From the NCBI RefSeq assembly GCF_009914755.1, contig NC_060929.1: DNA of 64,000 bases; one strand, given 5' to 3'. Numbering within the stretch: position 1 is the first letter of the stretch; every line of letters begins with the position of its first letter. The stretch comes from the human T2T-CHM13v2.0 reference genome, Homo sapiens. Positions 280 to 26,690 of the stretch are shown here, one piece after another. The translations under genes and the position numbers were made by a program. The notes under the pieces are model-generated. The model had not been told where the DNA came from, ran no database searches, and saw nothing but the letters and a program-made list of their open reading frames with translations.

Positions 280-1795
280 TGTTTCTACTGTCTCTCTTGA
301 AATTCATTAAAATGATGGAGAAAAGATTTAAAGCTCGTAAGAATAAAGTAAGTCCAAGAAGCAATAACACAGACTAAATTTTGGAAGCTAGGAAGAGGAT
401 TAGGGAACAAGAAAAGTCCCAAATCAAAGAAACTGGAAGCTAGCTTTTTTTGGACCTTAGAATCCAAGAGATTCTCAGAAATTGGAGTCATCATAGCATG
501 CAATTGAATTTGATACAGGAGGACTGTTAAAGAATTTGTATAACATGTTATTGAAAACACAGATTCCCTCCTCCATTCCCACAGATAACTTAGAGATTAA
601 ATCAGGGAGACTGTATCTATATAAAACCCAGGCAAGTTGAAAAACAGAAGGATTAAGTGAATGTCTGTATACTGAACAATAAGATGCATGGGTCCTCTCT
701 CCTATTTGTCTCCAAGAACACCAGCAGACTTTAAATATCTTAGATAAGAAGTTAAAAGAATCATCTCTGAATTAACTGACCAGCACAAGTTAGGGAAAAA
801 TAAAACTACAATAATAATTGAAATTCCATTCCTGAAAGACCCAAGCCAAATAACCCTTCGGTGAGGGCCACCAATCAGCAACCTACATCTCTGCCACAAA
901 CATATACACACTTAAATTGACACACAACACTTCCAAACAGCTTTCTAGTGCCTCGCTCTTCAATGTGAACAGGTAGACAAGCAACATCAGATATTTTAGA
1001 AAAGCCTCCTACATGAAACAAAGACCAAAATGAACTGGAAAGTCAGAAACAGATGTCTTAAAGGGAGCCTGATATTTTACTTATTGTCTTTAAAGATGAA
1101 GAAAAAAATACTATATATATGAAAAAAAGAATGGCAAATTTTAAAGAAACACTCAAAGATCAAGAAAAAACTCTTGGGAATTAAAAATAAGATAGAAGAA
1201 ATGTCAAGAAGAATTAGAAGAAGTGGTTAAAGAAATCTCCAGAAAGTAGAGCAAATAAAAAAATAGAAAATGGGAAGGAGAAAAAAAGAAAATTTAACAA
1301 TGAGTCCAGGATGTCTACCATCCAAGTAACAAGAGTTCCAGAAAGAGAGACAGGAAATAAAGGAGAGGAAAGGAAATAAAGGAAATTATCAAATAAATCA
1401 TGCACAAAATGTTTCAGAATTGATAAAGTTAAATTTCCAAATTGGGAGTGGTTAACACAATAGACAGAAAAAGACTCACGCTGAAACAAAAGTGTATCAT
1501 CATGAAATTTCTCCACATAAGAGATAAAAATACATACACTAGAAACTTTCAGAGAGATAAATAAAGCAGGCAACAAAGAAAGGATAAGGCATCATAATGG
1601 CATTAAACTTCTAACTGGAATAAAGTATGCAATAGAGAAATACCTTCAATATCCTGAGGGAAAATTACTTCCAACCTCAAAGAACTCTAAGATAAAAATA
1701 AAGATACTTTTAGATATATAAATCATCAAAAATCTATTTTCCATGTGTTCTTTTTCAAGATCCTGAAGGAGATACTTATCCAAATTAGAGACTAA
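280..1795 (+). mobile_element. Ancient L1 (HAL1/L1ME-like) 5'/ORF1 region, left part
   Basis: Degenerate A-rich ORF1-like sequence (e.g. agagttccagaaagagagacaggaaataaaggagag..., aaaattacttccaacctc). Resumes at ~14535 after the MLT1/L1 insertions. Confidence 0.6.
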
Positions 1796-1800
1796 CCCAC

Positions 1801-2166
1801 TGTATTAGTGTTCTATTGCTGCTATAACAAGTTACCACAAACTTAGTGGTATAAAACAACTTATTATTTTACAGCTCTGCAAGTCAGAAGTCCTAAAATC
1901 AATGTGTTAGCAGCCAGCAACCTTGCATTCCTGCTAGAGGATCTACAGAAAATCTTTTTTCTTGCCATTTCCAGCTTCTAGAGGTTGTTCTCACTCCTAG
2001 GTCCATGGCCCTTTCATCTGTCTTCAAAGCCAACAGCATAACATCTTTGAATATCTCTGACTCTGATACTGACTCTCCTGCCTCACTCTTTCACTTATAA
2101 GGACTCATGTAATTACATTGGCCCCACACAGATAATCCAGAATAATATCCTCAAGATCATTAATCA
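1801..2166 (-). mobile_element. MLT1D-like MaLR solo LTR, left part (split by L1PA8)
   Basis: Begins tgtattagtgttctattgctgctataacaagttaccacaaacttagtgg. Continues at 14431-14529. 5-bp TSD cccac (1796-1800) / cccaa (14530-14534). Confidence 0.85.
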
Positions 2167-3097
2167 GTGGACAGCAGCGATCAGAGGCTCCCAACGAAAA
2201 AAAAACAAAATAAACATGTGAATCCTTCACCAGCAATCAAGGTATCCAGGTTCTCTCACCAGAACTGACTAGGTGGCTGGCGTAATCCACGGAGAGGAAG
2301 AGCAGTGTGGTGTGGCAGCCCACCTAAGAGCCACACAGAGCAGAGGAGCCCCCACCTCCCAACCAAGGGAGGCAGTGAGTGAGCGTGCTACCCAGCCAGG
2401 GAAACCATGCTATTTCCACAGAACTGTGTAACCCAGATCGAAAGATCCCACTCCCAAACCCATACCACCAGGGCCTTGTTTCCCAACCCCAGAGCTGCAC
2501 AGTTCTCAACAGCCTCTCAGCTAGAATCTGCTTAAGCCCACTGAGCTCCTGGGGAAAGGGGCAACCAGTACTACAGCTGTGGCTGCCTGCTGTCTAAGCC
2601 ATTTCAGCTCACTGGGGGAGGGGCAGCAGCCAGCACTGGGACTCACAACTGCCTAACACCCTAACCTCCCTGGGTGGGGGAAAGGCGGCATCCATCTCTG
2701 TAGGTCCAGGCCACACTTTTCCTCTGCTGGAGCCAGGGAGTCTGGATGGCTTGGTCCCAAGACATGTCCTCCACAGCCCAATATACCAGCTGTGGCAGAC
2801 TGCACTCAGAGTGCCTCTTCAGGCCTCATCCTGACTCATCCTTCCTCACTGGGTCGGGCCTCCCTGCAGGAACTCCAGTAACTCCAACCAGATGCTCAGG
2901 GACAGAACCCAGATCTCACTGGCCCTGAGTCCCTAGGGGAAGGGGTGGCCATAGTCTCTGTGGACCAGCAGACTTAGCCTTTCCTCCTGGTAGTTCTGAG
3001 GAATCCAGGCAGCCCAAATGAGTGGGTTACCCCAAGTGATGCTCACCTCCTCCACCAAGGGACAGTTAATGTACTTTGTTAAAAGAGTCCAGTTCCC

Positions 3098-3392
3098 AGA
3101 CGGGCACGGTAGCTCATGCCTGTAATCCCAGCACTTTGGGAGGCCGAGGTGGGCGGATCACCAGGTCAGGAGATCAAGACCATCCTGGCTAACACAGTGA
3201 AACCCCATCTCTACTAAAAATACAAAAACAAAAAAATTTAGTCAGGCATGGTGGCAAGCACCCTTAGTCCCAGCTACTCAGGAGGCTGAGGCAGGAGAAT
3301 GGCATGAACACAAGAGGCAGAGCTTGCAGTGAGCTGAGATGGTGCCACTGCACTCCAGCCTGGGCGACAGAGCAAGACTCCATCTGAAAAAA
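3098..3392 (+). mobile_element. AluY-like SINE
   Basis: Full dimer with Y-type diagnostics (ggctaacacagtga, gaatggcatgaac, gagcttgcagtgag). Very short A tail abutting the L1 5' end. Confidence 0.9.
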
Positions 3393-3700
3393 TGGGGGGG
3401 CCTGCTCCAAGATGGTCAAATAGGAACAGCTCGAGTCTGCAGCTCCCAGTGTGACTGACTCAGAAGACAGGAGATTACTGTATTTCCAACTGAGCCTCCA
3501 CTGGTAATACCCAGGCAAACAGGATCTGGAGTGGACCTCCAGCAAACTCCAACAGACCTGCAGCTGAGGAACCTGACTGTTAGAAGGAAAACTAACAAAC
3601 AGAAAAAAATAGCATCAACATCAACAAAAAGGACATCCACACCAAAACCCCAACTGTAGGTCACCAACATCAAAGACCAAAGGTAGATAAAACCACAAAG

Positions 3701-4479
3701 ATGGGGAGAAACCAGAGCAGAAAAGCTGAAAATTCTAAAAGCCAGAGCGCCTCTTCTTCAAAGGATCACAGCTCCTCGCCAGCAACGGAACAAAGCTGGA
3801 CAGAGAATGACTTTGATGAGTTGACAGAAGTAGGCTTCAGAAGGTCGGTAATAACAAACTTCTCCAAGCTAACGGAGGATGTTCAAACCCATCGCAAGGA
3901 AGCTAAAAACCTTGATAAAAGATTAGACAAATGGCTAACTAGAATAAACAGTGTAGAGAAGACCTTAAATGACCCGATGGAGCTGAAAACCATGGCATGA
4001 GAACTACGCAATGCATGCACAAGTTTCAACAGCCAATTCAATCAAGTGGAAGAAAGGGTATCAGTGATTGAAAATCAAATCAATGAAATAAACTGAAAAC
4101 AGAAGTTTAGAGAAAAAAAGAGTAAAAAGAAACAAACAAAGACTCCAAGAAATATGGGACTATGTGAAAAGACCAAACCTACATTTGACTGGTGTACCTA
4201 AAAGCGACGAGGAGAATGGAACCAAGTTGGAAAACACTCCTCAGGATATTATCCAGGAGAACTTCCCGAATCTAGCAAGGCAGGCCAACATTCTAATTCA
4301 GGAAATACCGAGAACACCTTTACAGACAAGCAAATGCTGAGAGATTTTGTCACCACCAGGCCTGCCTTACAAGAGCTCCTGAAGGAAGCAATAAAGATGG
4401 AAAGGAACAACTAGTACCACTGCAAAAACATGCCACTGCATGTTTCACGTAGCCACTACAAAAACATGCCAAATTGTAA
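3701..4479 (+). pseudogene. Disrupted L1 ORF1p (inner L1)
   Basis: MGRNQSRKAENSK... ORF 3701-4000 ends at a premature stop; internal deletion near 4318. Confidence 0.9.
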
Positions 4480-4542
4480 AGACTATCGATGCTAGGAAGA
4501 AACTGCATCAACTAATGGGCAAAATAACTAGCTAACATCATA

Positions 4543-8346
<3,804 letters not shown>

Positions 8347-10007
8347 ACAATGAGAACACGTGGACACAGGGCGGGGAACATCACACACCAGGGCCTGTCA
8401 GGGGGTGGGGGGTAGGGGGAGGGATAGCATTAGGAGAAATATCTAATGTAAATGACAGTTAATGGGTGCAGCAAACCAACATGGCACATGTATTCCTATG
8501 TAACAAACCTGCACGTTGTGCACATCTACCCTAGAACTTAAAGTATAATAATAATAAAAAAAAGAGTCCTGTTCCCTGTGCCACCCAACTAGGTGAGACC
8601 CTCCTACAGGAGTTGTCAGACTCCCTATAGAGGAGTGATCCTACTGGTATCATGTTTGTGCTCATTGAGGTCAGAAATCCCAGAAGAAGGAGCAGGGACC
8701 CATCTTTGCTGTTCTCCAGCTTCCTTGAATGGCATCTTCAGGCGCGGGAGTGAATCAGATGAATAGGGCCTGAAGTGACCCTCCAGCAAACCACAGCAGC
8801 CCTACAGAAGACGGACCCAACCTTTGAAAGAAAAACAGAAAGCAGAAACAACAAGAACAAAAAAAAGCCCACACAAAACATCCAAGGGTCAGCAGCCTCA
8901 AAGATCGAAACTAGACAAACCCATGAAGATGAGAAAGAATCAACGAAGCAAACACTGAAAATCCAAAAAGCCAGAGTGCCTTTTCTCCCCAAAATTGATT
9001 GCAACATCTCTCCAGCAAGGGCACAGAACTGAACGGAGAATGAGATGGATGAATTGACAGAAGTAGGATTCAGAAAATGGGTAATAAAAAAACTACACTG
9101 AGCTAAAGGAGCATGTTCTAACCCAATGCAAAGAAGCTAAGAACCTTGATAAAACGTTAGAGGCACTGCTAACTAGAATAACCAGTTTAGAGAGGAAAAT
9201 AAATGACCTGATGGAGCTGAAAAACACAGCACAAGAACCTCATGAAGCATACACAAGTATCAAGAGCTAAATCGACCAAGCAGAAGAAAGGATATCAGAG
9301 TTTGAAGACCACCTTGCTGAAATAAGGCATCCAGACAAGATTAGAGAAAAAAAGAATGAAAAGAAATGAACAAAGCGTTCAAGAAATATGGGACTTCACA
9401 AAAAGACCAAACTTACAATTGATTGGAGTACCTGAAGGAGATGAGGAGAATGGAAACAAGCTGGAAAATACACTTCAGGATATTATCCCCAAACTAGAAA
9501 GACAGGCCAACATGCAAATTCAGGAAATATAGAGAACACTACTAAGATATTCCATGAGAAGATCTACCCCAAGACACATAATCATCAGATTCTCCAAGGT
9601 CAAAATGAAGAAAAAAATGTTAAGGGCAGCCAGAGAGAAAGGCTAGGTTACCTGCAAAGGGAAGCCCATCACACTAACAGCAGACCTCTCAGCAGAAACT
9701 CTACAAGTCAGAAGAGATTGGGGGACCAATATTCAACATTCTTAAAGAAAAGAATTTTCAACCCAGAATTTCATATTCAGCCAAACTATGCCTCATAAGT
9801 GAAGAAGAAATAAACTCCTTTCCAGACAAGCAAACTCTGAGGGATTTCATTACCACCAGACCTGCCTTGCAAGAGCTCCTAAAAGAAGCACTAAATATGG
9901 AAAGGAAAAATCTGTACCAGCCACTGCAAAAACATACCAAAATATAAAGACCAGTGACACTCTGTAGAAACTGCATCAACTACTGTGCAAAATAACCAGA
10001 TGGCATC

Positions 10008-13856
<3,849 letters not shown>

Positions 13857-14048
13857 ACAATGAGAACACATGGACACAGGGAGGGGAACAACACATACTA
13901 GGCCCTGTTTGGGGGTGGGGGATGAGGGGAGGGATCTTAGAGGATGGGTCAATAGGTGCAGCAAACCACTGTGGCACACGTATACCTATGTAACAAACCT
14001 GCACATTCTGCACATGTATCCTGGAACTTAAAATAATTTTTTAAAAAA

Positions 14049-14416
14049 GTAAGCAGTGAAGCACAGACTAGAAATCATGTCTTCTGATTTGACTTACACA
14101 TTTCTCTCCAGATTGAAATACGTAACTAGTATAACCTGTCCCATTATGGACACTAATCAGTGTGCAATCATTGAGATTCATTTGAAGATATTACAATTCC
14201 ATTTAATTTAGCCATTGTTAAAATTAAGTTGCTTAAGAGGCTCATATACATATTTCTTAGTCATTTTGGAGTAGAAATAATTCTTTTAGTGTTGTTATTG
14301 GTGCTGCAGCTGCTGTAGGTTAATCTTATTACAGCTATTATCTTTTGATTTCATTTTGAATTTTCTTCTTTTATATAGATTTTTACCACTAAGAAAAAAT
14401 AAATTCAGTTTAAAAA
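14049..14416 (+). other. Probable L1 3'-transduced sequence ending in AATAAA + A-run
   Basis: Non-L1 sequence between the L1 3' end and the 3' TSD; AATAAA 14398-14403, A run 14412-14418; the host MLT1D resumes right after the TSD. Confidence 0.8.
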
Positions 14417-14430
14417 AAGATCTTTAATCA

Positions 14431-14529
14431 TATCTTCAAAGTCCCTTTTGCTATGTAAGGTGCGTATATACAGATTTTGGGGATTAGGACATGAACATCT
14501 TTTGCAGGGCCATTATTCTGCCTATTATA
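14431..14529 (-). mobile_element. MLT1D-like LTR, right part
   Basis: tatcttcaaagtcccttttgctatgtaagg...gggccattattctgcctattata continues the element broken at 2166. Confidence 0.85.
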
Positions 14530-14534
14530 CCCAA

Positions 14535-25270: not shown

Positions 25271-26690
<1,420 letters not shown>

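What the first reader, a model, noticed from the sequence alone, without database searches (positions are those of the whole stretch)
14049..14430. Ancient L1PA8 3' transduction of ~360 bp
Seen: the L1 ends at ~14048 in aaaataatttttt with no AATAAA. The 14-bp TSD (2153-2166 vs 14417-14430, one mismatch) and the continuation of the host MLT1D come only after ~360 bp of non-L1 DNA ending AATAAA-ttcagttt-A7. Known: L1 read-through to a downstream poly(A) signal mobilises 3' flanking DNA. Inference: this segment tags the source L1 locus and possibly a family of sibling insertions.
Basis: partly seen in the sequence, partly recalled or inferred. Interest (0 to 1): 0.7.

Follow-up and report, generated by a model that had tools for sequence, protein, structure and literature searches.

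The report
Ancient parentless L1 flank transduction
A 365-base piece of DNA copied from another chromosome sits at the tail end of an old LINE-1 jumping gene, inside its insertion marks; it was likely carried along about 40 million years ago from a parent element that is absent at the source site in this genome, a well-known and ordinary kind of event.

Summary
Window 14046-14410 has one other copy in the genome, G000:C9:130807415-130807782, 88-89% identical. That copy has no A tail and runs on in both directions, and an old SINE-like repeat crosses its 5' breakpoint unbroken, so it is the donor. The 14-bp target-site duplication (2153-2166 / 14417-14430) encloses the L1 and the segment together, and the host LTR resumes in register after it. 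Segment and L1 have the same age: K2P 0.120 against 0.117 +/- 0.014. No L1 adjoins the donor, and no sense L1 3' end lies within 37 kb upstream. No sibling insertion was found. Best reading: a 'parentless' 3' transduction whose source L1 was likely never fixed (0.78), a configuration described in print. Rivals: a separate insertion into the L1's A tail (0.10), or a spliced or template-switch chimera (0.08). The subfamily looks more like L1PA8A than L1PA8 (recalled, not tested). Real but ordinary.

The parts
1795..2152 (.).
   Evidence: 2580 candidates genome-wide, best 67-75% identical; continuity with the right part
2153..2166 (+). Left copy of the 14-bp target-site duplication; target TC|AAGA, two transitions from TT|AAAA
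2167..3097 (+). 5' part of the outer L1 (5' UTR), up to a nested insertion; whether the first few tens of bases are missing was not tested
   Evidence: 39 best relatives 80-85% identical, many matching from query base 5-6
3098..8576 (+). Later nested Alu (3098-3392) plus younger L1 (3394-8559) inside one 17-bp duplication (3081-3097 / 8560-8576); interrupts the outer L1 and is not part of the transduction
8577..14045 (+). Rest of the outer L1 to its degenerate A/T tail; reading frames decayed (91-99 stops per frame); outer element about 6.4 kb in all
14046..14410 (+). Transduced segment, copy of G000:C9:130807415-130807782; 325 matches, 40 substitutions, 3 gap columns; 30% GC, no stop-free stretch over 60 codons
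14398..14403 (+). AATAAA, shared with the donor; the only AATAAA in the segment; likely the signal at which the read-through RNA ended
14411..14416 (+). T plus 5 A not present at the donor: likely remnant of the poly(A) tail
14417..14430 (+). Right copy of the 14-bp target-site duplication
14431..14530 (.). Right part of the host LTR, resuming in register

Best explanation
The 365-bp segment is a copy of a unique stretch on contig C9 and lies with the L1 inside one target-site duplication; it was likely carried here as a LINE-1 3' transduction from a parent L1 that is inferred to have sat at the C9 site and never become fixed. Shown: donor copy, sharp ends, shared AATAAA, A run only at the window copy, common TSD, equal divergence, no L1 at the donor. 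Inferred: a parent L1 inserted at TT|AGAA at C9:130807413; RNA polymerase read through its end and polyadenylated 7-10 bases after the AATAAA about 350 bases downstream; the L1 machinery copied the whole RNA into an old LTR here by target-primed reverse transcription, roughly 40 million years ago; the daughter was fixed while the parent allele was lost. An Alu and a younger L1 entered the 5' part later.
For: One donor, E 2e-128, 89%; homology confined to the segment in 30 kb of C9 against the whole window. A profile built from 50 SINE-like copies, with both test sites masked, matches the donor across the breakpoint without a gap there (15.3 bits, E 1.2e-5 in 4 kb; 16 columns inside the segment, about 70 outside) and gives no hit at the window copy, so C9 is the undisturbed original. 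TSD and host continuity. K2P 0.120 (non-CpG 0.105; uncorrected non-CpG 0.098, SE 0.016) against 0.117 +/- 0.014 (0.093 +/- 0.015) for the outer L1 versus 23 relatives with at least 600 aligned bases, 6 of 29 dropped as shorter. The donor breakpoint lies at an endonuclease-like site, one transition from TT|AAAA; background 0.46% per position, 1.4% for any of 3 adjacent positions. Parentless transductions are the majority in dog data: 17 of 18 (PMC7980453, passages) and 24 of 27 (PMC13141329, passages).
Against: The parent L1 is not seen; its existence is inferred. The same breakpoint also follows a YAG with 11 of 17 pyrimidines, background 0.76% per position, so the site statistic does not single out the endonuclease reading; both were computed after seeing the site. 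Only 7 shared bases follow AATAAA, below the 10-40 bases reported for human donors (PMC9311842, passages); cleavage at the CA 10 bases on needs changes next to the tail. The 50 bases downstream at the donor are not U-rich (28% T). The segment is bracketed by its own short repeats (TTTAAAAAA at 14040 and 14409; AAAAAAG at 14043 and 14413). The L1 relatives used for dating are the best hits, so their distances lean low.
Confidence: 0.78

Rival explanations
1. Two events: the L1 inserted first; soon afterwards a short retrocopy or orphan transduction of the C9 sequence landed in the L1's T/A tail, with its own short A-rich duplication.
For: The tail offers a TT|AAAA site and 7-9 bp direct repeats bracket the segment. 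The window shows another possible insertion into an A tail (Alu plus L1 in one duplication).
Against: The bracketing repeats are low-complexity; the left one overlaps donor sequence and the right one overlaps the host TSD. T4+A3+ tails occur in 9 of 26 relatives. The segment is not younger than the L1. Short TSDs are not typical of sequences mobilised in trans (PMC2912911, passages). It still needs an RNA from C9, so a lost L1 or an unknown transcript.
Confidence: 0.1
2. RNA-level chimera: the L1 RNA's 3' end was joined to a terminal-exon-like piece of a C9 transcript by cis- or trans-splicing, or reverse transcriptase began on the C9 RNA and jumped to the L1 RNA's A tail.
For: The donor's 5' breakpoint follows TTAG with a modest pyrimidine stretch (0.76% background) and the segment ends at AATAAA, the outline of a last exon. 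AAAG at the junction is shared by tail and donor. L1 chimeras with mRNA pieces whose source lacks an L1 are described, at the 5' side (bioRxiv 2025.02.02.635956, passages).
Against: No sense L1 3' end within 37 kb upstream; the only sense L1 piece is a 77% internal fragment at C9:130770096-130770587, and the nearest near-age L1 is on the minus strand 11 kb downstream. The L1 tail is retained, so a donor would have to lie just behind it. The described chimeras have the opposite order. No Rfam match in 3.4 kb round the donor. No transcript data were available.
Confidence: 0.08
3. The parent L1 was fixed at C9 and later removed cleanly by recombination between its target-site copies, or the segment was captured at the DNA level during break repair.
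For: A precise removal would leave the same empty site as seen.
Against: Precise removal of a 6-kb element is rare (recalled). DNA capture does not predict an end 7 bases after the only AATAAA, an added A run, or enclosure by the L1's TSD; the capture paper found (PMC2671141, search listing only) concerns proximal DNA.
Confidence: 0.04

Closest known systems
LINE-1 3' transduction (described in PMC9311842, PMC3024322, bioRxiv 2021.07.12.451456; passages read)
   Same: L1, unique flank, AATAAA, A run and TSD in that order; donor copy elsewhere lacking the A tail; interchromosomal; length within the reported 8-997 bp.
   Different: About 40 million years old rather than polymorphic L1HS; tail almost eroded; only 7 shared bases after AATAAA.
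'Parentless' 3' transductions (dog: PMC7980453, PMC13141329; passages read)
   Same: Donor sequence not adjacent to an L1.
   Different: There the parent is presumed still segregating; here it is inferred to be long lost and the daughter old.
L1 chimeras with mRNA or lncRNA pieces (bioRxiv 2025.02.02.635956; passages and one section read)
   Same: Unique sequence and L1 inside one TSD, source without an L1.
   Different: Those carry the foreign piece at the 5' side; here it is 3' and ends at a poly(A) signal.

Membership tests
L1 3' transduction | Non-L1 sequence between L1 end and the 3' TSD copy | tested here: met
L1 3' transduction | Second genomic copy that lacks the A tail and continues past the end | tested here: met
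   G000:C9:130807415-130807782
L1 3' transduction | Poly(A) signal and tail at the end of the added sequence | tested here: met
   AATAAA at 14398 and T+A5; spacing short (7 shared bases)
L1 3' transduction | Endonuclease-type target and TSD of typical length | tested here: met
   TC|AAGA, 14 bp; peak 14-16 bp for full-length L1 in PMC2912911
L1 3' transduction | L1 and segment arrived together | tested here: inconclusive
   equal divergence within error; a separate insertion into the tail is not excluded; needs primate orthologues
L1 3' transduction with mapped parent | Same-family sense L1 directly upstream of the donor | tested here: not met
   none adjacent, no sense 3' end in 37 kb upstream; hence filed as parentless
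Transduction family (siblings) | Further insertions carrying the same tag | tested here: not met
   only the two copies; one search adds one 2-mismatch hit at control level with no flanking homology; 0 of 29 L1 relatives carry it
L1PA8 subfamily | Diagnostic 5' and 3' UTR positions of the subfamily consensus | not testable with these tools
   no repeat library; recalled motifs fit L1PA8A better; divergence fits the L1PA8/8A era (about 40 Ma for L1PA8 in PMC3525338)
MLT1D host LTR | Best match to the MLT1D consensus | not testable with these tools
   an old repeat family in register on both sides is shown; the name is recalled
Segmental duplication | Homology extending over kilobases on either side | tested here: not met
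   homology stops at both ends of 365 bp

The most novel reading that the evidence does not exclude
The junction is not read-through at all but a 3' chimera: a near-full-length L1 RNA joined by splicing or template jumping to a last-exon-like piece (acceptor to AATAAA) of a separate transcript, the reverse of the order in catalogued L1 chimeras. Some 'parentless transductions' would then never have had a parent.
Probability: 0.08. Interest if true: 0.55.

Novelty: new member of a known kind. Interest (0 to 1): 0.24.

Why it matters
Modestly. It is a clean, old example of L1 moving flanking DNA between chromosomes, with its donor mapped. If the best reading is right, the tag records an active L1 allele that segregated in early anthropoids and is absent from this genome, which makes the C9 site a specific place to look for it in other primates. 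No coding or known RNA function attaches to the segment, and no gene is annotated in the window (hub annotation).

Tried and rejected
Segmental duplication: rejected, homology ends sharply. Window copy as donor: rejected, the SINE-like repeat continues upstream only on C9 and the A run and TSD are only here. Minus-strand L1 at C9:130818802 onward as parent: wrong orientation, 11 kb away. Segment first, L1 later at its 5' edge: rejected, no second TSD copy after the L1 tail. Sibling candidates: C11:20081762 (44 bases of AT-rich match), C23:72844757 (pattern hit at control level) and three short hits to a SINE-like stretch downstream of the donor are not copies of the segment. Missing AATAAA at the L1 end as the cause of read-through: not supported as special. 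Rfam: no match. The 5' ends of full-length relatives were not obtained, so completeness of the first bases of the outer L1 is open. Szak 2003, Pickeral 2000, Khan 2006 and the journal version of Hoyt 2022 were not held; PMC5381506 had no passage on L1PA8.

Full report
Observation. The sequence is as described. The outer L1 runs from 2167 to a degenerate tail at about 14045, interrupted by a nested Alu and L1 (3098-8576). After the tail come 365 bases of non-L1 DNA with AATAAA at 14398, then T and seven A, of which the last two open the right TSD copy at 14417-14430. The two TSD copies differ at one base. Of 654 14-mers from the left flank, only this one recurs with at most one mismatch in the kilobase after the L1 end; one more 1-mismatch hit exists elsewhere in the window, at 26228. 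The flanks, aligned separately to 19 other copies of the host LTR family, project to the same base in 5, to within 27 bases in 16; two copies are offset by 456 and 569 bases and the right flank does not beat shuffles in two. The insert itself scores at shuffle level against all 19.

Donor. A search of the whole genome gave two matches for the segment: itself and G000:C9:130807425-130807782 (89%, E 2e-128). C9 is taken to be chromosome 9 because the hub gives C5 as chr5. Local alignment extends the match to window 14046-14410 against C9:130807415-130807782, with 325 matches, 26 transitions, 14 transversions and 3 gap columns, K2P 0.120. Beyond these ends the two loci share only common repeats. 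At C9 the sequence continues after AATAAA-TTCAGTT without an A run. A profile built from 50 SINE-like copies in the fetched DNA, with both test sites masked, matches C9 across the 5' breakpoint without a gap there, weakly but clearly (15.3 bits, E 1.2e-5 in 4 kb), and does not match the window copy; I recall this repeat as MIR. So C9 is the undisturbed original and the window holds the copy.

No parent, no siblings. Fifty kilobases of C9 (130770001-130820000) were compared with the window's L1s. No L1 touches the donor. The only sense piece upstream is a 77% internal fragment 37 kb away; a near-age L1 lies on the minus strand 11 kb downstream. Searches with the segment, the donor plus 1.5 kb downstream, its 5' end at E up to 10 and three patterns with 2-3 mismatches gave only the two copies, apart from background hits checked. 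None of the 29 best L1 relatives carries the tag within 1.5 kb. These searches score only the best candidates, so a very diverged sibling could be missed.

Age. The outer L1's last 1.8 kb differs from 23 relatives by K2P 0.117 +/- 0.014 (non-CpG 0.093 +/- 0.015; 6 of 29 dropped for under 600 aligned bases). The segment differs from its donor by 0.120 (non-CpG 0.105; SE about 0.016). The copy is therefore as old as the L1 within error, not younger. The relatives are best hits and lean low. L1PA8 activity is placed near 40 Ma in PMC3525338 (passages). From recall the 3' UTR and the 5' UTR type fit L1PA8A, which that paper's table places just before L1PA8 and a preprint calls a side branch (10.1101/2021.04.06.438727, passages); I could not test the label.

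Mechanism. The order L1, tail, unique DNA, AATAAA, A run, TSD is what read-through and target-primed reverse transcription produce (PMC13141329, passages). The donor breakpoint sits at TT|AGAA, one transition from the endonuclease consensus; 0.46% of positions in 30 kb of C9 are this good, 1.4% if any of three adjacent positions may count. That fits an L1 once inserted exactly there. Parentless donors are common: 17 of 18 and 24 of 27 in dogs. I put this reading at 0.78. Against it: the parent is inferred; the spacing after AATAAA is 7 shared bases where 10-40 is reported (PMC9311842, passages); the donor's downstream 50 bases are not U-rich; and the absence of AATAAA at the L1 end says little, since 12 of 26 relatives lack it too.

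Rivals. First, a separate insertion into the L1's tail: 7-9 bp A/T repeats bracket the segment, but they overlap donor and host TSD, such tails occur in 9 of 26 relatives, and the ages match (0.10). Second, an RNA chimera: the breakpoint also follows TTAG with 11 of 17 pyrimidines, background 0.76%, as rare as the endonuclease reading, and the segment ends at a poly(A) signal like a last exon. No upstream parent for cis-splicing was found within 37 kb, the L1 tail is retained, and catalogued chimeras have the foreign piece at the 5' side (10.1101/2025.02.02.635956, passages and section 23) (0.08). Third, a fixed parent precisely removed, or DNA capture (0.04).

Novelty. The mechanism and the parentless state are in print. 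Six literature searches (by topic, not by coordinate) showed no paper naming this locus, but that is weak: Hoyt et al. catalogued 183 top-confidence L1 3' transductions in CHM13 and more in lower bins (preprint, passages), and their supplementary tables, those of the chimera preprint, and Szak 2003 and Pickeral 2000 could not be seen. PMC3024322 (passages) uses the same confirmation test on L1HS. Verdict: real, correctly read in kind, a new member of a known kind, interest 0.24.

Noticed in passing
window 3394-3494/3495: The nested younger L1 lacks most of its 5' UTR: the join CAACTGAG|CCTCC lies about 100 bases from its start. 25 of 39 best relatives match across the join and 14 start at query base 100; 7 of 7 fetched copies have the join at the same base. 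It fits the spliced L1 class SpIRE97/853, of which PMC5860796 lists nine using a 95% identity cut (passages); at least 26 copies at 87-91% are seen here, so older members may be under-counted. The removed stretch's GT-AG ends were not checked.
   Followed up: partly
window 3081-8576: An Alu (3098-3392, six-A tail) and the younger L1 share one 17-bp duplication (3081-3097 / 8560-8576, one mismatch, TT|AAAA target). Either an Alu/L1 chimera, 113 of which are described, or an L1 that landed in the Alu's tail. None of 7 related spliced copies shows an Alu end in the 43 bases upstream.
   Followed up: partly
window 26228-26241: A chance 1-mismatch copy of the TSD 14-mer inside an old L1-like stretch.
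   Followed up: yes
L072, G000:C9:130770009-130770587: Old L1 fragment with a short inverted piece abutting it at the edge of the fetched stretch.
   Followed up: no
L019 and L023 (G000:C1:83122773 and C7:78026677): Two L1 relatives with near-identical ends and tails and the same aligned length, likely a duplicated pair.
   Followed up: no
L030 (G000:C20:42341599-42342000): An L1 relative whose last 40 or so bases are repeated in tandem after its tail.
   Followed up: no
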